Source: Roseiflexaceae bacterium
GTDB lineage: Bacteria; Chloroflexota; Chloroflexia; Chloroflexales; Roseiflexaceae
Length of the DNA: 64,000 nucleotides
Reading direction: 5' to 3'
NCBI GenBank assembly: GCA_040397035.1
Contig: JBBAWW010000001.1
Location: 16,960 to 80,959, forward strand
The notes below the pieces were generated by a model. That model had not been told where the DNA came from, ran no database searches, and saw only the letters and a list, made by a program, of their open reading frames with translations. This document shows, piece after piece, positions 1 to 17,166 of the stretch; positions within the stretch are counted from its first letter, which is position 1; each line of letters opens with the position of its first letter. The translations under genes were made by a program, and so were the position numbers.

Positions 1-772
1 CGTACGACAGATGATTGAGCACCTTGGCATGTTTGACGAGGCGCGGGTCGGTAGTCATTACGCCATCGACGTCGGTATAAATGTCGACTTCATCGGCGTC
101 TAATGCTTCCCCAAAAATAGCCCCGCTATAGTCACTGCCACCTCGGCCCAATGTGGTTATTGCACCACTGGCGGTGGCGCCGATAAAGCCGGTAATCACT
201 GGCGTGATGCCTTGGGCAAAGAGGGGCAAAATAGCCGCCTGGATTTGGTCGCGGGTTTGGGGGTAAATGGGGGCGCCGTTGCCAAATTCCGCCGTTGTTA
301 GTACCACCGTGTTGGCATCGATGGCTTGGGCTGGCGTCCCTTTGGCGTATAAGGCAGCCGCAACGAGGCGCACACTCATGCGCTCGCCAAGGCTGGCGAT
401 GGCGTCGAGGGCCCGTGGCGAGGCTTCGCCGAGGACACCGACGGCTTGGATAAGGAGTTCGTATTCACTTATCAACGTATTGATTTGTTGGGCAAGCGCC
501 GCACTTGCTGGTGTATCGCCGGCTAATTCGTGCAACGTGGTGATGTGGCGGGAACGCAATGCATCTGCACTGGTGTGGGCACTAGCTTTATCGCCCCGCG
601 CCGCTGCATTGGCTCCATTAATCAAGATATCGGTGACGCCACTCATGGCTGATACCACGACAGCCACATTATCCCATTGTGTTTTTTGATCATGCACAAT
701 CTGACAAAGCATGCCGATGGCTGCGCTACTGCCGACCGACGTGCCCCCAAATTTCATTGCAAGTACGCTCAT
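1..772 (-). CDS. lysC: aspartate kinase (N-terminal ~257 aa; C-terminus lies beyond the window edge)
   Basis: My reverse-strand translation from the ATG at 772..770 reads MSVLAMKFGGTSVGSS...GRGGSDYSGAIFG...TDVDGVMTTDPR, which are classic aspartokinase motifs. The frame stays open to position 1. It is absent from the ORF track because it is truncated. Confidence 0.88.
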   Translation of the reverse strand, partial: MSVLAMKFGGTSVGSSAAIGMLCQIVHDQKTQWDNVAVVVSAMSGVTDILINGANAAARGDKASAHTSADALRSRHITTLHELAGDTPASAALAQQINTLISEYELLIQAVGVLGEASPRALDAIASLGERMSVRLVAAALYAKGTPAQAIDANTVVLTTAEFGNGAPIYPQTRDQIQAAILPLFAQGITPVITGFIGATASGAITTLGRGGSDYSGAIFGEALDADEVDIYTDVDGVMTTDPRLVKHAKVLNHLSY

Positions 773-786
773 ATGATCCTCGTTGT

Positions 787-1833
787 TTATAATCCGAGCC
801 ATTTGACAATGGCATCGAGGTTGGCAGGAATTGCTTCGGGGGTGGCGAATTGTTCCACCGCCGTGTTGGGGTCTTTGAGGCCGTGGCCGGTCACTATTGC
901 CACATAGGTGCCGTCGCGGTCGACTTGGCCGCTCTGCACCAATTTGCGTAGCCCGGCCACGCCGGCTGCCGAGGCTGGCTCAATAAACACCGCTTCTTGG
1001 CGGGCCAAATCTCGCCATGACGCCAAAATCTCGGTGTCGGTGACTTCACCGATGATGCCTTCAGATTCATCGCGGGCGGCCACCGCTTGCTTCCAGCTGG
1101 CGGGATTGCCGATGCGGATGGCAGTGGCAATGGTTTCGGGGTAGGCGATAGGTGTGCCACGTACAATAGCCGCCGAGCCACTGGCTTCAAATCCCAGTAT
1201 GCGTGGCAAGTTTTTGATTTTGCCAGCGGCGTGGTATTGCTTGAAGCCGTGCCAATAAGCGGTAATATTGCCTGCATTACCTACCGGCAGACACAAACCA
1301 TCAGGAGCACGGCCTAGTTCATCACAAATTTCGTAAGCAGCGGTGGCTTGACCATCGATGCGGTAGGGGTTGACGGAATTGACCAGGGTCAGGGGGTGTG
1401 ATTCAGAAATTTCGCGCACAATCCGCAAGGCATCGTCAAAGTTACCATCGATAACTAACAAGCGGGCGCCATACATCAATGCCTGTGCCAATTTACCAAG
1501 GGCGATTTTGCCCGCTGGCACCACCACCACGGCTTCGATGCCGGCGCGGGCCGCATAGGCTGCGGCACTCGCTGAGGTGTTACCGGTCGAGGCACAAATC
1601 ACGCAATTAGAACCGGCTTCGACCGCTTTGGCAACGGCCATCACCATGCCACGATCTTTAAATGAGCCAGTTGGATTCATGCTTTCGAGTTTGACATACA
1701 ACTTGGCGACGCCTACGGCTGCCGCCAAACGGGGTACATCGAGGAGTGGCGTGCGCCCTTCGCCAAGTGTCAACATTGGCGTATTGGCGGTGATAGGCAG
1801 AAACTCTCGGTAGTTTGTGAGTAACATATGCAC
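787..1833 (-). CDS. thrC: threonine synthase
   Basis: 348-aa ORF with the PLP-lysine motif [10 protein letters not shown] and threonine-synthase-like sequence throughout. The start is GTG at 1833 or ATG at 1827 (AAGGTG SD just upstream). It ends 14 nt upstream of lysC. Confidence 0.9.
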
Positions 1834-1842
1834 CTTTCATAC

Positions 1843-1870
1843 AAAAACCCCCCTCCTTGTGGGAGGGGGG
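1843..1870 (-). terminator. intrinsic terminator (attenuator) between the Thr leader peptide and thrC
   Basis: The minus-strand RNA reads CCCCCCUCC-CACAA-GGAGGGGGG followed by UUUUU. This is a 9-bp almost pure G:C stem ending ~10-16 nt before the thrC start. Confidence 0.8.
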
Positions 1871-1910
1871 GGGCGACACCGGGTCGACCGAAACACCACT
1901 CACCACAACC

Positions 1911-1988
1911 CTATGCCACACCTGTAGTGGTGCGGCTGCGAGTAGTAGTAGTAGTGGTGACCATCCGGCAAATCGTTTTGTTCAACAT
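1911..1988 (-). CDS. threonine-rich leader peptide MLNKTICRMVTTTTTTRSRTTTGVA (alternative internal start at 1964: MVTTTTTTRSRTTTGVA)
   Basis: Hand translation of the C-terminal part of the 81-aa track ORF 1911..2156. It has 10 Thr in 25 codons with a run of six ACC/ACT codons. The first ATG lies 8 nt after the -10 hexamer, so a leaderless start is possible. Confidence 0.7.
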   Translation of the reverse strand: MLNKTICRMVTTTTTTRSRTTTGVA

Positions 1989-1995
1989 GATACTA

Positions 1996-2024
1996 ATAAT
2001 ACGTCCTCTTTTGTGCACTGTCAA
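1996..2024 (-). promoter_or_regulatory. sigma70-type promoter for the thr leader-thrC-lysC transcript
   Basis: Minus strand reads TTGACA (2024..2019), a 17-nt spacer, then TATTAT (2001..1996). Confidence 0.6.
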
Positions 2025-2040
2025 ATGGATAGAGATTGGG

Positions 2041-2046
2041 TATAAT
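2041..2046 (+). promoter_or_regulatory. candidate -10 box (TATAAT) for the divergent dinG-like gene
   Basis: A perfect TATAAT lies 68 nt upstream of the ATG at 2114. I saw no convincing -35. Confidence 0.3.
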
Positions 2047-2113
2047 ATGCTAATGGAATATATGCCTAGGTGTGGGCGATAGCGCCGTTTGTTGAATGAT
2101 AGGTTAGGAAAAA

Positions 2114-4960
2114 ATGATGTACGACGCAACCATGGTTGCCATTGATGTTGAAGCAACCGGTTTAAGTGATATTGACGATGAAGTTATTGAAGTCGCCGCG
2201 GTACGCTTTCGTGGCTTGACTGAAGTCGACCATTACACCACCTTGGTCAAACCGAGCGTTGCAATCCCCTTCAAAATCTCGCGCATCACCAATATTACCG
2301 ATGCCATGGTGGCCGACAAACCCACCTTTGCCGAAGTACGCGCCCAGCTCAAGGCCTTTATCGGCGATGATCCGGTGCTAGGGCACAGTGTCGATTTCGA
2401 TGTACGGATGCTGGCTGGCTCGGGACTACGCCTCAAACAACCCGCCATCGATACCTTTGAGCTCGCCACCTTGGTGACACCCAATGCCGGTAGCTTTAAG
2501 TTGACTGATTTAGTCAAAAAACTAGGCGTGACGGTGCAAGACGACGGTGATGCCCACCGCGCCTTGTACGATGCGCGGCTGGCCCAGCGCCTTTTTTGTC
2601 GCTTGTATGAATTACTCATCGACAATGACATGGCGTTGATTGAAGAAGTACTGCGTATCACCCGCACCCTGCCCAATTGGCCACTACGTCCAATCTTTGC
2701 CCAAGCGTTGAGTGATGTGGCCAAAGCGTCGTTTGGCAAAAACAAGCCCCGCCGCGTGCGCTCGCTCGATGACTACATCCCCCTCGAGCCTACCAATTCG
2801 TCGACACCGATTCGTAATACCACCATCGAAAAAATATTTTCGACCACAGGGGTGTTGGGGCGCATGTTCCCCGGCTACGAACAACGCGAACCACAAGTCA
2901 CCATGTCCACAGCCGTCGCCGAAGCCTTCAATACGGGCGATCATCTCATCGTCGAAGCAGGCACTGGTACTGGCAAAGGCCTAGCCTATCTCGTTCCGGC
3001 TGCTTTGCATGCACTCGAACGTGGCCAACGGGTGGTATTGACCACCCATACGATTAACCTGCAAGACCAATTGTTTTTCAAAGATATCCCCGCCCTCACC
3101 AAAATCTTTGATGCCGAACGGGCAGCCGGCAATACCCAAATCCCCGATATTGATTTGCAATCGGCGCTACTCAAGGGCCGTAGCAACTATCTGTGTATGC
3201 GCCGCCTCGATGAAGCCAAAGTCATTGGCGGTACCACTGATGACGACACCAAATCGTTGCTCAAAGTGGCCATGTGGGCCACCAAAACCGACGCCGGTGA
3301 CCGCAACGAAATTGCCTTGTTTGACCGCGAAATGGTAACCTGGAACCGTTTGCATGCCGGCTTTGATATGTGCAATGGTCCCGCCTGTGCCTATTTCGAC
3401 CAATGTTGGTTCTTTTTGGCGCGCCGCCAGGCCGAAGCTGCCCATTTGGTGGTGGTGAATCATGCCTTGATGTTGATTGATATGGTATTGGAATCTCCCA
3501 TTTTGCCACCCTATGACCACGTGGTCATCGACGAAGCGCACAACCTCGAAGACGTCGCCACCGATCAATTCGGTTGGCGCCTCGATTACAGTGACGTCAT
3601 TACCTTTTTTGACAGTATGATTCACGAAGGTGGCCAGATGCAAGCCGAGGGCTTACTGCTGCGCTTGCCGACGTTCCTTAAGGGCAGTACCGCCGGTCGC
3701 GACGTGAGTGAGCAGATGGCAAGGATTGTGGAGCGTACCAATCCATCCATCGAACGCGCCCGCACCCAGATCCGCGAATTGTTTGATCTGATGAGCATTG
3801 TGATGCTCCAAGAAGCCGAAACCAATAGCTACGACACCCGGCTGCGGATTACCGCTGCCACCCGTCGCTTGAGTAAATGGCAACCTATCCTGCCGGCATG
3901 GGAAAATGTAGCCTTGTCGTTTCGCAGTATTGCCCTGCAACTCAACGACCTCACCCAACTCGTCGATGCCCTCGCCGACGCCAATATCGTCGATTACGAA
4001 GCGCTGGCGAGCCAAACTAAATCGCTCAATCGTTTTGTACTCGACTTCAACATGAATATGGCTAGTTTTATCCATGGCGAAGACACCAATCTGATTACCT
4101 GGATGCTCCAAGCCCGTAATCGCGATGAATTGCAACTCGCCATCGCACCACTCGAAGTAGCCAGTTTGCTCCGTGAGCGCTTGTTTGACAAAAAGAAGAG
4201 CGTAATCCTGACGTCGGCCACCTTGTCAGTCAATAATCGCTTTGACTATGTACAACAGCGTCTCGGGGTAGACACCGACCACCACATCCAACTCGATTCT
4301 CCCTACGACTACGAAGACCAAGTGCTGTTGTATCTCCCCCAAGACATGCCCGAACCCAAAGATTTTGAGTACCAACAAGTCCTCGAACAAGCGATTGTCG
4401 ATACCGCCATTGCGGCGTCAGGACGCACGCTGGTGCTGTTTACCTCGACGAGTTCACTGCGTACCACCTACAACGCCGTCTATGAAAAATTGGCTGAACA
4501 GGGGATTAATCTATTAGGCCAAAATATGGATGGCTCACGTAAATTGATTTTGGAGCGCTTCAAAACTGAACCGCGCAGTGTGTTATTTGGCACGTCAAGC
4601 TTCTGGGAAGGGGTCGATGTGGTTGGTGATGCCTTGTCGGCCTTGATTATCACCAAACTGCCTTTTGCAGTGCCCAGCGATCCCATATATGCGGCCCGGT
4701 CAGAACAATTTAGCGACGCCTTTAACGAGTATTCGTTGCCACAGTCGATTTTGAAGTTCAAACAAGGGTTTGGCCGGCTAGTCCGCGCCAAAGACGACCG
4801 CGGGATTGTCATCGCGCTCGATCGACGTTTGACCAGCAAAAAATACGGGCAACAATTTTTGCAATCGTTGCCCGCAACTACGGTGCGCACAGGTCCTATT
4901 CGAGCGGTCGCCTCGTTGGTGCGCCGCACGGTTACTCCGCCGGCGTCGCAGCCGGAGTAA
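2114..4960 (+). CDS. dinG: DinG-family ATP-dependent helicase with N-terminal DnaQ-like 3'-5' exonuclease domain
   Basis: 948 aa. N-terminal DEDD-type motif VAIDVEATGL...EVIEVAAV...H.ALYDA, Walker A AGTGTGKG, DEAH box VIDEAHNLED, and a four-Cys Fe-S cluster region (CMRR...CNGPACAYFDQC). Confidence 0.85.
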   Translation: MMYDATMVAIDVEATGLSDIDDEVIEVAAVRFRGLTEVDHYTTLVKPSVAIPFKISRITNITDAMVADKPTFAEVRAQLKAFIGDDPVLGHSVDFDVRMLAGSGLRLKQPAIDTFELATLVTPNAGSFKLTDLVKKLGVTVQDDGDAHRALYDARLAQRLFCRLYELLIDNDMALIEEVLRITRTLPNWPLRPIFAQALSDVAKASFGKNKPRRVRSLDDYIPLEPTNSSTPIRNTTIEKIFSTTGVLGRMFPGYEQREPQVTMSTAVAEAFNTGDHLIVEAGTGTGKGLAYLVPAALHALERGQRVVLTTHTINLQDQLFFKDIPALTKIFDAERAAGNTQIPDIDLQSALLKGRSNYLCMRRLDEAKVIGGTTDDDTKSLLKVAMWATKTDAGDRNEIALFDREMVTWNRLHAGFDMCNGPACAYFDQCWFFLARRQAEAAHLVVVNHALMLIDMVLESPILPPYDHVVIDEAHNLEDVATDQFGWRLDYSDVITFFDSMIHEGGQMQAEGLLLRLPTFLKGSTAGRDVSEQMARIVERTNPSIERARTQIRELFDLMSIVMLQEAETNSYDTRLRITAATRRLSKWQPILPAWENVALSFRSIALQLNDLTQLVDALADANIVDYEALASQTKSLNRFVLDFNMNMASFIHGEDTNLITWMLQARNRDELQLAIAPLEVASLLRERLFDKKKSVILTSATLSVNNRFDYVQQRLGVDTDHHIQLDSPYDYEDQVLLYLPQDMPEPKDFEYQQVLEQAIVDTAIAASGRTLVLFTSTSSLRTTYNAVYEKLAEQGINLLGQNMDGSRKLILERFKTEPRSVLFGTSSFWEGVDVVGDALSALIITKLPFAVPSDPIYAARSEQFSDAFNEYSLPQSILKFKQGFGRLVRAKDDRGIVIALDRRLTSKKYGQQFLQSLPATTVRTGPIRAVASLVRRTVTPPASQPE

Positions 4961-9322: not shown

Positions 9323-9399
9323 AGTCACCTCTTTGACAGATGATTGTTTATTCAATTATACTGCCATGGCAGCGAAAGCTGTAACAAGTACATAAATGA

Positions 9400-9520
9400 T
9401 AAAGTGACCCGCTAGCCCGGATGCTAGGGCGTTAAGGTGGAAGACGGTGAGAGTCCGTCGCTGTGCCGCAACTGTAAGTATCGCTCGCCGATACAAGTCA
9501 GGAAACCTGCTTTATCACGT
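9400..9520 (+). promoter_or_regulatory. cobalamin (B12) riboswitch aptamer
   Basis: Conserved core GGTGGAAGACGGTGAGAGTCCGTCGCTGTGCCGCAACTGTAAG and a B12-box-like AGTCAGGAAACCTGC at 9496..9510. It is positioned upstream of a btuFCD-like operon. Confidence 0.8.
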
Positions 9521-9597
9521 ACGTGGATTTGACCTTCTCGCGCGAGGGAGGTGCCATGAAGACACAACACGTCTATGGACGGCGGTTGGTCGCATTG

Positions 9598-15754: not shown

Positions 15755-15783
15755 TTGACACATTGTACTCTGGGTTTTATACT
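15755..15783 (+). promoter_or_regulatory. sigma70-type promoter for the MgtE_N/CBS-Nramp leader
   Basis: TTGACA (15755..15760), a 17-nt spacer, then TATACT (15778..15783). Confidence 0.55.
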
Positions 15784-15856
15784 TATATACATGGACGACG
15801 ATTATCACTCAGCTCATTTGAATACCTGTTAGCGCACGCACGCCAATGCACGGGGA

Positions 15857-15889
15857 ACACCCGCATGCAGACGTATGCGGGTGTTTTTA
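15857..15889 (+). terminator. intrinsic terminator inside the 5' leader (attenuator or riboswitch expression platform candidate)
   Basis: ACACCCGCAT pairs with ATGCGGGTGT in a 10-bp stem with an 8-nt loop, followed by a T run. It ends ~20 nt before the GTG start at 15910. No plus-strand gene lies upstream for it to terminate. Confidence 0.7.
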
Positions 15890-15909
15890 TTGCATACCAG
15901 AGGTGTGGC

Positions 15910-17166
15910 GTGCTGTTTATCTCACAACTGATGCATCTGCCCGTCAAAGCCCGTGATGGTGGTGATGTTGGCAAAATCATTGATATCATGGTACGAATCG
16001 ACGACCGTAGCTATCCCCCGATTGGGGGGATAATTGTTGCAGATCGCCGGCGTACCTTTTTTATCCCTGCATCACATCTCGCCGAAGTCAGCTTACATAC
16101 GATTCAACTCAATACCACCCAAATCAATCTCGAGCGCTTTATTCGCCGCGACGGCGAAGTATTGCTCAACAAAGACGTGCTCGATCACCAAATCATCGAC
16201 ATCAATGGTCGGCGGATTGTGCGGGTCAATGACATTCAGATGGCATTAATTGACCACGATTATTGTGTGGTGGGTGTCGATGTCAGTCCGCAAGCGTTGC
16301 TTCGCCGCCTCGCACCGCGCTCGGCCTCCCCCCACATCATCGGGCGTCAAGTGATTAGTTGGGCTGACGCACAATATTTGGCTAGTGCGGCTCCAGTGCA
16401 ACTCAAAGTTTCATACAATCGTTTGTCCGAACTTGGTGCTGTCGATTTGGCGCGTATCGTTGATGCCTTGTCGTACCGCGAAAGTGCCGAGATTGTGGCA
16501 GCCCTCGACGACGAAACCGCCGCCCAAACCCTCGAAGAAGTCTCCGACGAACGCTTGGTTGATTTGCTCGAGGGCATGGACCAAGAGCGCGCCGCCGATA
16601 TTTTGGAAGAAATGACCCCCAATGCGGCTGCTGATTTGCTCGAAGACCTCGATGCCGAAGTGGCCAAGCAAATCCTGGCTCGTATGGAGCCCGAAGAAGC
16701 CGAAGACGTCAAAGAATTGCTGGCCTATGCCGAAGACTCGGTAGGGCGAAGCATGATGACCGACCTCGTGCTGGCCTTCCCCGATGATACCGTGGCCGAA
16801 GTAATTGCCGGGTTGCGCGCCCGCCACGAATTGCCGGATCCGTTGACCGAAATCTACATAGTCGAACATTCCGACCATGATTCACTCCAGCACATCGGGT
16901 CACCGCTTGTGGGCATTGTCCGCTTACCTAAATTGTTAGTTAGTGGCGGTGACACACATATGCATGAAATCCTCGAAGAGGTGCCGTCGATTCATGCGAG
17001 TGACCCGTCTGAAATCGCCGCACGCGTGCTTGGAGAATACAATCTGACTGCCGTGCCGGTCATCGACGATGATGGCGCACTTGTCGGCGCGGTCAGTGTC
17101 GACGATGCGTTGGCTGAATTGTTGCCCGATATTTGGCACCGCCGTGGTGCACGGAATTTTGGATAG
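15910..17166 (+). CDS. soluble PRC-barrel / MgtE N-domain / CBS-pair protein (MgtE cytoplasmic sensor module without the channel domain)
   Basis: GTG 15910 is preceded by an AGAGGTG SD. MgtE_N-like acidic helices (LEEMTPNAAADLLEDLDAEVAKQILARMEPEEAEDVKELLAY) are followed by a CBS pair (VIDDDGALVGAVSVDDAL). There is no hydrophobic C-terminal domain. Confidence 0.7.
   Translation: MLFISQLMHLPVKARDGGDVGKIIDIMVRIDDRSYPPIGGIIVADRRRTFFIPASHLAEVSLHTIQLNTTQINLERFIRRDGEVLLNKDVLDHQIIDINGRRIVRVNDIQMALIDHDYCVVGVDVSPQALLRRLAPRSASPHIIGRQVISWADAQYLASAAPVQLKVSYNRLSELGAVDLARIVDALSYRESAEIVAALDDETAAQTLEEVSDERLVDLLEGMDQERAADILEEMTPNAAADLLEDLDAEVAKQILARMEPEEAEDVKELLAYAEDSVGRSMMTDLVLAFPDDTVAEVIAGLRARHELPDPLTEIYIVEHSDHDSLQHIGSPLVGIVRLPKLLVSGGDTHMHEILEEVPSIHASDPSEIAARVLGEYNLTAVPVIDDDGALVGAVSVDDALAELLPDIWHRRGARNFG

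What the first reader, a model, noticed from the sequence alone, without database searches (positions are those of the whole stretch)
1843..2024. Threonine-codon leader peptide (possibly leaderless) and G:C-rich terminator upstream of thrC-lysC
On the minus strand, TTGACA-17 nt-TATTAT is followed by MLNKTICRMVTTTTTTRSRTTTGVA, which has 10 Thr including six consecutive ACC/ACU codons. The first ATG lies only 8 nt after the -10 hexamer, so the leader peptide would be translated from a leaderless mRNA. The internal ATG at 1964 lacks a clear SD.

A 9-bp almost pure G:C hairpin (CCCCCCUCC/GGAGGGGGG) plus U5 follows, ending 10-16 nt before the thrC start. The Thr-codon run CACCACUACUACU is complementary (with G:U pairs) to GGUUGUGGUGAGUGGUG immediately after the stop codon. 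This gives thrL-like alternative structures. The terminator also contains a C9/G9 homopolymer.
Basis: partly seen in the sequence, partly recalled or inferred. Interest (0 to 1): 0.7.

Follow-up and report, generated by a model that had tools for sequence, protein, structure and literature searches.

The report
Threonine leader-peptide attenuator before thrC
A short threonine-rich mini-gene followed by a switchable transcription stop signal lies just upstream of the threonine synthase–aspartate kinase genes of a Chloroflexota bacterium; it is a textbook type of amino-acid sensor, apparently undescribed in this phylum and probably translated from an mRNA that has no untranslated 5' end.

Summary
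On the minus strand, TTGACA-17-TATTAT (2024-1996) is followed 7 nt later by ATG 1988. This opens a 25-codon ORF with 10 Thr codons, six of them consecutive. A 9-bp G:C hairpin plus U5 (1870-1843) ends 15 nt before the thrC ATG (1827).

No Rfam family matches. Twenty-one other distinct thrC-aspartate kinase loci from Roseiflexaceae/Kouleothrix-like Chloroflexota carry the same module: a consensus promoter, a Thr-run mini-ORF, an inner hairpin, a G-rich segment and a C-rich terminator. None of 147 more distant thrC loci does, and neither does Herpetosiphon giganteus.

The G-rich segment can pair with the Thr codons or with the 5' arm of the terminator. Both conformations are 85-96% paired across relatives, against about 50% in slid controls. 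Substitutions in the Thr run fall mostly on third codon positions.

In 13 of 22 loci the start codon lies 6-9 nt after the -10 box, with no room for a Shine-Dalgarno sequence. The other nine have 24-37 nt leaders. Leaderless attenuator peptides are already known in Actinobacteria and Deinococcus.

Verdict: a new member of a known kind, of moderate interest. No transcription start, termination or threonine response has been measured.

The parts
2019..2024 (-). -35 hexamer TTGACA of the leader promoter
   Evidence: Found by the consensus scan. TTGACA with a 17-nt spacer is invariant in all 22 leaders.
1996..2001 (-). -10 hexamer TATTAT
   Evidence: Found by the scan. The form TATNNT is present in all 22 leaders.
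1986..1988 (-). ATG of the leader ORF, which is also the predicted transcription start (inferred, not measured). It lies 7 nt after the -10 box.
   Evidence: Sequence. The gap is 6-7 nt in 12 loci and 9 nt in one. No Shine-Dalgarno sequence is possible in that space.
1911..1988 (-). Leader ORF of 25 codons plus TAG (1913-1911): MLNKTICRMVTTTTTTRSRTTTGVA
   Evidence: Outside the Thr runs the peptide is not conserved among relatives.
1941..1958 (-). Region 1: six consecutive Thr codons (ACC, then ACU x5). This is the proposed ribosome stall site and the 5' strand of the anti-antiterminator helix.
   Evidence: Substitutions fall on third codon positions.
1923..1931 (-). Second Thr cluster (ACC ACU ACA), in the 5' arm and loop of the inner hairpin
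   Evidence: A second Thr cluster is present in most relatives.
1915..1936 (-). Inner hairpin (7-8 bp, loop ACUACA) between regions 1 and 2
   Evidence: Present in the MFE fold. In alignment A4 it is 98.7% paired, and 4 of its 7 pairs show changes on both sides.
1894..1910 (-). Region 2: G/U-rich segment GGUUGUGGUGAGUGGUG directly after the stop codon. It pairs either with region 1 or with region 3.
   Evidence: Pairing 1:2 is in the MFE fold. Pairing 2:3, from 1908-1894 to 1868-1857, is 12 bp with three single-U bulges and scores -18.7 kcal/mol including the interior hairpin. It is the MFE of 1908..1857.
1872..1889 (-). Small hairpin enclosed by the antiterminator
   Evidence: The homologous hairpin is about 90% paired in A4.
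1857..1873 (-). Region 3: the C9 run, UCCC and ACAA. It forms the 5' arm of the terminator (1870-1862) and the 3' strand of the antiterminator (1868-1857).
1843..1856 (-). Region 4: terminator 3' arm GGAGGGGGG (1856-1848) and the U5 tract (1847-1843)
   Evidence: Found by the scan. The hairpin alone scores -20.6 kcal/mol. The signature is unique in the window.
787..1837 (-). thrC: Shine-Dalgarno-like AAAGGUG at 1837-1831, and the CDS from ATG 1827 to the stop at 787
   Evidence: TIGR00260 at 323.7 bits. Homologues align from residue 1.
2..772 (-). Aspartate kinase gene. It starts at ATG 772 and runs off the window. It is the second gene of the controlled operon.
   Evidence: TIGR00657 at 227 bits. 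The thrC-ask pair is conserved in the 13 first-round relative loci and in the 10 loci fetched later.

Best explanation
This is a ribosome-mediated (leader-peptide) transcription attenuator that makes expression of the thrC-aspartate kinase operon respond to charged tRNA-Thr.

Proposed mechanism:
1. Transcription starts from a near-consensus sigma-70-type promoter, at or within a base of the ATG of a 25-codon mini-ORF. The first ribosome therefore loads on a leaderless 5'-AUG.
2. When Thr-tRNA is plentiful, the ribosome runs through the six-codon Thr run and the second three-codon cluster. It reaches the UAG and covers the G-rich region 2, which begins directly after the stop codon. The C-rich region 3 is then free to pair with region 4, and the G:C hairpin plus U5 terminates transcription 15 nt before thrC.
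3. When there is no translation at all, region 1 (the Thr codons) pairs with region 2. The outcome is the same: termination.
4. When Thr-tRNA is scarce, the ribosome stalls on the Thr run. It masks region 1 but leaves region 2 free. Region 2 pairs with region 3 before region 4 has been transcribed. This antiterminator blocks formation of the terminator, and RNA polymerase reads into thrC and ask.

What is shown by sequence and comparison: the parts, their conservation, and the mutually exclusive pairings. What is inferred: the TSS, leaderless initiation, stalling, termination, and the response to threonine.
For: (1) The anatomy is present.

(2) The module is conserved. The same arrangement precedes thrC-ask in 21 further distinct loci. 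It is absent from 147 more distant thrC loci. It stays with thrC even where the upstream neighbour differs.

(3) There is a coding signal. In the Thr-run block, non-majority cells at codon positions 1/2/3 number 1/8/29 in alignment A4 and 3/10/22 in A5. The peptide outside the Thr runs is not conserved.

(4) The alternative structures are conserved.
- Terminator state (1:2 helix, inner hairpin, terminator): 91.8% paired in A4 and 85.4% in A5. Slid controls give 46-55%.
- Antiterminator state: 96.0% in A4 and 86.1% in A5. The 2:3 helix alone is 96.0% and 90.9% paired.
- The inner hairpin shows compensatory changes.

(5) Folds that imitate co-transcriptional order behave as the model predicts. 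With the 3' arm of the terminator not yet made and the ribosome footprint masked, helix 2:3 forms in the 13 leaders tested when the ribosome sits on the Thr run. It does not form when the ribosome sits at the stop codon.

(6) In all leaders examined, the stop codon lies just before, inside or just after region 2. A terminating ribosome would therefore occlude it.

(7) The controlled genes fit. They are threonine synthase and an aspartate kinase.

(8) Leaderless geometry. In 13 of 22 loci the start codon lies 6 nt (8 loci), 7 nt (4) or 9 nt (1) after the -10 box, and the intervening bases differ. In several loci (L002, L004, L005, L081) this 5'-proximal AUG or GUG is the only in-frame start upstream of the Thr run.

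(9) The rare Thr codon ACU is enriched. It makes up 41% of leader Thr codons, against 11% in four window genes.
Against: - There are no experimental data of any kind.
- The terminator and 2:3 helices are almost invariant. Their support is therefore conserved complementarity, not covariation.
- The window's own antiterminator is irregular, with three U bulges. It is slightly weaker than the terminator: -18.7 against -20.6 kcal/mol.
- In equilibrium folds of the full leader the terminator always survives, even with the ribosome masked. Antitermination therefore has to be kinetic.
- Leaderless genes were predicted to be rare in Chloroflexi: about 4-6%, and in only 4 of 12 genomes (PMC3160421).
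- No long ORF in the window shows a strong promoter abutting its start codon.
- Nine relatives have 24-37 nt 5' UTRs without a clear Shine-Dalgarno sequence. How their leader ORF is initiated is unclear.
- Herpetosiphon giganteus, at 73% ThrC identity, lacks the element.
Confidence: 0.8

Rival explanations
1. The attenuator is real, but the leader peptide is not translated from a leaderless mRNA. Either transcription starts elsewhere, or the TSS is as predicted and initiation uses some other route. In that case the short distance from the -10 box to the ATG in this subgroup is a by-product of a compact intergenic region.
For: - Nine relatives carry the same attenuator with 24-37 nt 5' UTRs, so a leaderless start is not needed for function.
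- Leaderless genes were predicted to be rare in Chloroflexi (PMC3160421).
- No other gene in the window shows the geometry with a strong promoter.
Against: - The spacing of 6-7 nt (one case of 9 nt) is kept in 13 loci although the intervening bases differ.
- The sequence upstream of the ATG is the promoter itself and contains no Shine-Dalgarno sequence.
- In L002, L004, L005 and L081 no other in-frame start precedes the Thr run.
- All 22 loci share a perfect TTGACA-17-TATNNT. The same promoter type sits about 16 nt before a bona fide cobalamin riboswitch in this window.
Confidence: 0.15
2. The element is a transcription attenuator that senses something other than ribosome stalling. Candidates would be a protein, uncharged tRNA-Thr or a metabolite binding the RNA. 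The ACN repeats would then serve only as one strand of a helix.
For: - The Thr codons are complementary to region 2, so RNA-level selection alone could favour ACY repeats.
- The leader ORFs of the leadered group have no convincing Shine-Dalgarno sequence.
Against: - The ACN triplets are always in frame with a start codon, and no stop codon appears before region 2.
- Variation concentrates on third codon positions. It includes ACA and ACG, which weaken pairing with G but keep Thr.
- The position of the stop codon relative to region 2 is conserved.
- No T-box or any other Rfam family matches, even at E up to 10.
- There is no conserved unpaired core typical of a ligand pocket.
Confidence: 0.04
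3. The mini-ORF encodes a functional Thr-rich micropeptide (for example a modified-peptide precursor) with its own terminator, and it merely happens to lie next to thrC.
For: - A strong promoter, an ORF and a strong terminator together look formally like a small independent gene.
- Thr-rich peptides can be substrates for modification.
Against: - Only the Thr runs are conserved. Length varies from 23 to 36 residues, and the N- and C-terminal sequences vary freely.
- thrC has no promoter of its own in the 15 nt after the terminator.
- The element travels with thrC-ask through different genomic contexts.
- No modification enzymes are adjacent.
Confidence: 0.01

Closest known systems
Escherichia coli / enterobacterial thr operon leader (thrL; Rfam Thr_leader RF00506)
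   Same: Both have a short leader ORF with a run of Thr codons; some relatives here also have interleaved Ile codons, for example L167 TITTTTTTITT and L168 TTITITT. Both use the four-region logic of 1:2, 2:3 and 3:4 pairings with an intrinsic terminator. Both control an operon that contains an aspartate kinase activity and threonine synthase.
   Different: There is no sequence or covariance-model similarity: no RF00506 hit even at E up to 10. The phylum differs (Chloroflexota). The operon is thrC-ask, not thrABC. The leader ORF here is leaderless, or lacks a clear Shine-Dalgarno sequence, rather than being SD-led. An extra inner hairpin lies between regions 1 and 2. The origin is most likely independent.
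Leaderless leader peptides of attenuators in Actinobacteria and Deinococcus. Examples: Streptomyces lividans trpL, leuL, ilvL and thrL-thrS (PMC8079986); Deinococcus deserti, 14 putative leader peptides (PMC4007540); Corynebacterium glutamicum, as cited in PMC8079986.
   Same: The TSS coincides with the start codon of a short ORF enriched in the cognate amino acid, lying upstream of amino-acid biosynthesis or tRNA synthetase genes. In several cases hairpins and a U tract follow.
   Different: Those cases were mapped by RNA-seq, whereas here the TSS is only inferred. The reported S. lividans thrL has 2 Thr codons, precedes thrS and lacks a clear terminator. Here there are 6+3 Thr codons, a canonical terminator and thrC-ask. 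The phylum also differs.
Mycobacterial polycysteine leaderless short ORFs that attenuate downstream operon expression (bioRxiv 10.1101/834739; PMC4633059)
   Same: A leaderless mini-ORF with a run of codons for one amino acid regulates downstream genes of that amino acid's metabolism.
   Different: Those elements sense cysteine rather than threonine. As far as I recall, that system was not described as working through a canonical intrinsic terminator with an antiterminator; I did not read that paper beyond its abstract. The present element has the full classical terminator-antiterminator set.

Membership tests
Rfam Thr_leader (RF00506) | Covariance-model score at or above the family's gathering threshold | tested here: not met
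   cmscan of window 1500-2500 on both strands, at E up to 10, lists no Thr_leader match. The whole-window gathering search finds only a cobalamin riboswitch elsewhere.
Ribosome-mediated (leader-peptide) transcription attenuators | A short ORF upstream of the operon, enriched in codons for the amino acid the operon makes | tested here: met
   The 25-codon ORF has 10 Thr codons, six of them consecutive. A Thr run is present in all 22 leaders. The downstream genes are threonine synthase and aspartate kinase.
Ribosome-mediated (leader-peptide) transcription attenuators | An intrinsic terminator between the leader ORF and the first structural gene | tested here: met
   There is a 9-bp stem (8 G:C pairs) plus U5 at 1870-1843. 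Terminator helices are 97.3% paired in A4 and 93.6% in A5. Termination activity itself has not been measured.
Ribosome-mediated (leader-peptide) transcription attenuators | An antiterminator helix that shares a strand with the terminator | tested here: met
   Region 2 (1908-1894) pairs with 1868-1857 and overlaps the 5' arm of the terminator. The helix is conserved at 96.0% and 90.9% paired, against about 50% in slid controls. This evidence is in silico only.
Ribosome-mediated (leader-peptide) transcription attenuators | The regulatory codons lie in a strand (region 1) that sequesters the antiterminator strand, and the stop codon is placed so that a terminating ribosome covers region 2 | tested here: met
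   Helix 1:2 is in the MFE fold. It is 80.4% paired in A4 and 79.6% in A5. The stop codon is adjacent to, or inside, region 2 in all leaders. Masked folds behave as predicted.
Ribosome-mediated (leader-peptide) transcription attenuators | Read-through increases when the cognate aminoacyl-tRNA is limiting | not testable with these tools
   This needs in vivo or in vitro transcription-translation assays.
Leaderless mRNAs | The transcription start site lies at, or within a few nucleotides of, the start codon | not testable with these tools
   This is inferred only from promoter geometry. The gap from the -10 box to the start codon is 6 nt in 8 loci, 7 nt in 4 (including the window) and 9 nt in 1.
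Leaderless mRNAs | A 5'-terminal AUG or GUG and no Shine-Dalgarno sequence | tested here: met
   The start codon is AUG in 12 loci and GUG in 1 (L005). The 6-9 nt upstream are variable and form part of the promoter discriminator.

The most novel reading that the evidence does not exclude
One attenuator family exists within a single bacterial lineage in two forms. In 13 loci the start codon sits at the predicted transcription start. In 9 loci there is a 24-37 nt 5' UTR. If the leaderless reading is right, this would be the first ribosome-mediated attenuator described in Chloroflexota. It would also be a natural paired system for asking how a 70S ribosome that loads on a 5'-terminal AUG couples to RNA polymerase right after promoter escape, compared with conventional initiation on the same regulatory RNA.
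Probability: 0.6. Interest if true: 0.5.

Novelty: new member of a known kind. Interest (0 to 1): 0.4.

Why it matters
Leader-peptide attenuation is usually presented as a proteobacterial device, with scattered cases in Actinobacteria and Deinococcus. One comparative survey that included Chloroflexi could only score the four γ-proteobacterial-type Rfam attenuator families, and it suggested that these motifs originated in γ-proteobacteria (PMC3766115).

This element has all the classical parts and is backed by 22 independent sequences. It extends the mechanism to Chloroflexota, probably by independent invention. It gives a ready-made seed alignment for a new RNA family. It implies tight transcription-translation coupling in this phylum. 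It also supplies a leaderless/leadered pair of the same switch.

For genome annotation, it identifies the aspartate kinase downstream of thrC as the threonine-controlled isozyme.

Tried and rejected
- **Rfam.** Searches at a permissive E-value on the region, and at gathering score on the whole window, found nothing for this element.
- **Equilibrium folding with the ribosome footprint masked.** The terminator survived in every sequence. This does not model co-transcriptional order. I replaced it with folds truncated before the 3' arm.
- **One MAFFT alignment of both subgroups (A1).** It misaligned region 2, so the subgroups were analysed separately (A2/A3, then A4/A5). In A4, MAFFT cannot represent the register shift of the window, L001 and L164. 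Their two 'unpaired' columns in the 2:3 helix are really single-U bulges.
- **Other copies of the element.** The terminator signature and Thr runs occur once in the window and once per relative locus, and nowhere else in the first 160 loci fetched.
- **Leaderless geometry at long ORFs in the window.** None was found with a strong promoter. The organism's general use of leaderless mRNAs therefore remains unsupported.
- **ATG 1840 as the thrC start or as a conserved uORF.** Rejected. It is out of frame with thrC, and its ORF length is not conserved: 8 codons in L002, and no ATG in L003.
- **The long in-frame upstream extension (TTG 2156, 81 aa).** Rejected. It runs through the promoter and is not conserved in L003 or L004.
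- **Supplementary table of D. deserti leader peptides.** It is not held as text.
- **Not done.** I did not build a covariance model, because only sequence already fetched could have been searched with it.

Full report
**What is in the sequence**

All features lie on the minus strand of the window.
- A promoter-like site, TTGACA (2024-2019), 17 nt, TATTAT (2001-1996), matches 11 of 12 consensus positions.
- Seven bases later, ATG 1988 opens a 25-codon ORF, MLNKTICRMVTTTTTTRSRTTTGVA, which ends at TAG 1913-1911.
- Ten of the codons are Thr. Six are consecutive (ACC, then ACU x5, at 1958-1941) and three more lie at 1931-1923.
- After the stop codon comes a G/U-rich stretch (1910-1894), then a small hairpin.
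- Next is a C9UCCC tract whose last nine bases form the 5' arm of a 9-bp hairpin (1870-1862 with 1856-1848, 8 G:C pairs). U5 follows at 1847-1843.
- The thrC start supported by homologues is ATG 1827, which is 15 nt after the U tract and is preceded by AAAGGUG. ATG 1840 is out of frame.
- The ORF downstream of thrC is an aspartate kinase that runs off the window. The divergent upstream gene is a DnaQ-DinG helicase.

**Is it more than chance?**
- A run of at least 6 ACN triplets occurs once in 128 kb of strand. Shuffles give 0.02.
- The terminator signature occurs once, with 0 expected.
- Only 12 promoter-like sites with at least 10 of 12 matches exist in the window. One of them sits about 16 nt before a bona fide cobalamin riboswitch. 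This suggests that consensus promoters of this type are really used by this organism.
- The leader RNA folds to -71.5 kcal/mol, z = -3.7 against shuffles.
- No Rfam family matches, even at E up to 10.

**Comparative evidence**

The window belongs to a freshwater Roseiflexaceae-like member of the Chloroflexota. The closest locus, L001, is 96% identical in ThrC. I collected thrC loci in three ways:
- a scan of species-representative genomes;
- a metagenome scan;
- a protein search followed by context look-ups.

Twenty-one further distinct loci with 72-96% ThrC identity carry the same module upstream of thrC-ask. The module is a perfect TTGACA-17-TATNNT promoter, a 23-36-codon ORF with a Thr run, an inner hairpin, a G-rich segment, and a terminator built on CCCCCUCC / GGA(N)GGGGG.

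None of 147 more distant thrC loci has even 4 Thr in 7 residues in a short upstream ORF. Herpetosiphon giganteus, at 73% ThrC identity, also lacks the element. The element stays with thrC-ask when the upstream neighbour changes.

**Evidence that the mini-ORF is read as codons**
- The peptides share nothing but the Thr runs.
- In the aligned Thr-run block, non-majority cells fall at codon positions 1/2/3 as 1/8/29 in A4 and 3/10/22 in A5.
- The variants include ACA and ACG. These keep Thr but weaken pairing with region 2.
- Several relatives interleave Ile codons with the Thr codons (L005, L008, L167, L168), as enterobacterial thrL does.
- ACU is rare in four window genes (11% of Thr codons) but makes up 41% of leader Thr codons.

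**Alternative RNA structures**

Across relatives, two conformations are conserved.

Terminator state (1:2 helix, inner hairpin, terminator):
- 91.8% of cells paired in A4 (11 sequences of the window's type);
- 85.4% in A5 (11 sequences of the sister type);
- 46-55% when partners are slid by 1-3 columns.

Antiterminator state:
- The same G-rich segment also pairs with the 5' arm of the terminator.
- This state is 96.0% paired in A4 and 86.1% in A5. The 2:3 helix alone is 96.0% and 90.9% paired.
- In the window itself, 1908-1894 pairs with 1868-1857. This gives 12 bp with three single-U bulges, at -18.7 kcal/mol including the enclosed hairpin. It is the MFE of that sub-sequence.
- The terminator hairpin alone scores -20.6 kcal/mol.

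Changes on both sides of a pair are seen mainly in the inner hairpin (4 of 7 pairs in A4, 3 of 8 in A5). The terminator and antiterminator strands are almost invariant. That is what one expects of a segment that has to pair with two different partners, but it also means these helices rest on conserved complementarity rather than on covariation.

**Simulated mechanism**
- In equilibrium folds of the full leader, the terminator always survives, even with a stalled ribosome masked. The switch therefore has to be kinetic, as in classical attenuators.
- In folds truncated before the 3' arm, the 2:3 helix forms in all 13 leaders tested when a ribosome footprint is placed on the Thr run.
- The 2:3 helix does not form when the footprint is placed at the stop codon, because the stop lies just before, inside or just after region 2.
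- Without a ribosome, region 1 takes region 2 in most sequences.

This is the four-region logic of the trp and thr attenuators.

**The leaderless question**

In 13 of 22 loci the start codon lies 6 nt (8 loci), 7 nt (4 loci, including the window) or 9 nt (1 locus) after the -10 hexamer. The intervening bases differ. With a 6-nt gap, the A of AUG falls exactly at the canonical +1 position. In L002, L004, L005 and L081, no other in-frame start precedes the Thr run. There is no room for a Shine-Dalgarno sequence.

The other nine loci have 24-37 nt 5' UTRs without a convincing Shine-Dalgarno sequence. The loci with leaderless geometry also have short distances from the U tract to thrC (15-22 nt, against 32-87 nt).

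Caveats:
- No TSS has been mapped.
- Leaderless genes were predicted to be rare in Chloroflexi (PMC3160421).
- No long ORF in this window shows the same geometry with a strong promoter.

I put the leaderless reading at about 0.65, and the attenuator reading as a whole at about 0.8.

**Comparison with what is known**

The mechanism is the classical one of enterobacterial thrL. However, the element fails the only formal membership test for that family, the RF00506 covariance model, and it most likely arose independently.

Leader peptides translated from leaderless transcripts have been reported in:
- Deinococcus deserti, with 14 putative cases (PMC4007540);
- Streptomyces lividans, including a 2-Thr thrL upstream of thrS (PMC8079986);
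- mycobacteria, with polycysteine ORFs (bioRxiv 10.1101/834739).

Full-text searches found no description of a leader-peptide attenuator in Chloroflexi. A regulon survey that included Chloroflexi scored only the four Rfam attenuator families, which it tied to γ-proteobacteria (PMC3766115).

**Verdict**

The finding is a well-supported new member of a known kind: it belongs to a known mechanistic class, but to no existing sequence family. Interest is moderate (0.4). The leaderless/leadered pair within one lineage is the most interesting aspect.

Noticed in passing
window 15755-15935 (+): A second leader of similar style. TTGACA-17-TATACT is followed 7 nt later by ATG 15791, which opens a 13-codon mini-ORF (MDDDYHSAHLNTC). 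A 16-bp hairpin with U5 (about 15853-15895) follows, just upstream of a gene with MgtE_N and CBS domains (start GTG 15910 or ATG 15931). No Rfam family matches, including the M-box. The region folds with z = -3.3.
   Followed up: partly
window 9385-9528 (+): Cobalamin riboswitch (RF00174, 58.5 bits). A TTGACA-18-TATACT promoter-like site ends at 9362, about 16 nt upstream of the aptamer.
   Followed up: partly
window 2018-2046 (+): A promoter-like site, CTGTCA-17-TATAAT, lies on the opposite strand. Its -35 box overlaps the -35 box of the thr leader promoter back to back. It would serve the divergent dnaQ-dinG gene (2114..4960). The two promoters may compete for RNA polymerase.
   Followed up: no
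window 1865-1873 (-) and L001 2955-2966: The C run ahead of the terminator stem is C9 in the window but C6 in the 96%-identical L001 and in the other loci of this type. This is either homopolymer length variation or an assembly error. The three extra Cs lie outside the stem.
   Followed up: partly
window 1838-1840 (-) and homologous positions in type-A loci: The sequence GUAUGA directly after the U tract is conserved in most loci of the window's type. It gives an out-of-frame AUG 11 nt after the GGAGG of the terminator's 3' arm. The ORF it opens is not conserved in length (61 codons here, 8 in L002, none in L003), so it is probably not coding. The freed GGAGGGGGG arm might still act as a ribosome standby site on read-through transcripts.
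   Followed up: partly
L006 2915-3000, L008 2918-3000, L009 2929-3000: In the Kouleothrix/Ribeiella-type loci, the 70-87 nt between the leader terminator and the thrC Shine-Dalgarno sequence consist of long inverted repeats of short tandem units (for example CAATCCA/CAATCTG in L006 and AATTCTC in L008). They could be extra hairpins or REP-like insertions.
   Followed up: no
L161 about 600-800 (Herpetosiphon giganteus JAFBCZ010000003.1): There is no Thr leader here. Instead there is an array of repeats of about 9-10 nt containing TTCGTG or TTCGCG, then a TATAAT-like box, then a 10-bp hairpin with U7 only about 15 nt before the annotated thrC start. This may be a different control region, possibly a protein-binding one.
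   Followed up: no
22 leader ORFs (window 1911-1988 and relatives): Leader Thr codons are strongly biased towards ACU (51 of 123), whereas ACC dominates in four window genes and ACU is only 17 of 149 there. ACU and ACC together make up 77% of leader Thr codons, and from general knowledge both are probably read by the same tRNA-Thr(GGU), so the element may sense mainly that isoacceptor.
   Followed up: partly
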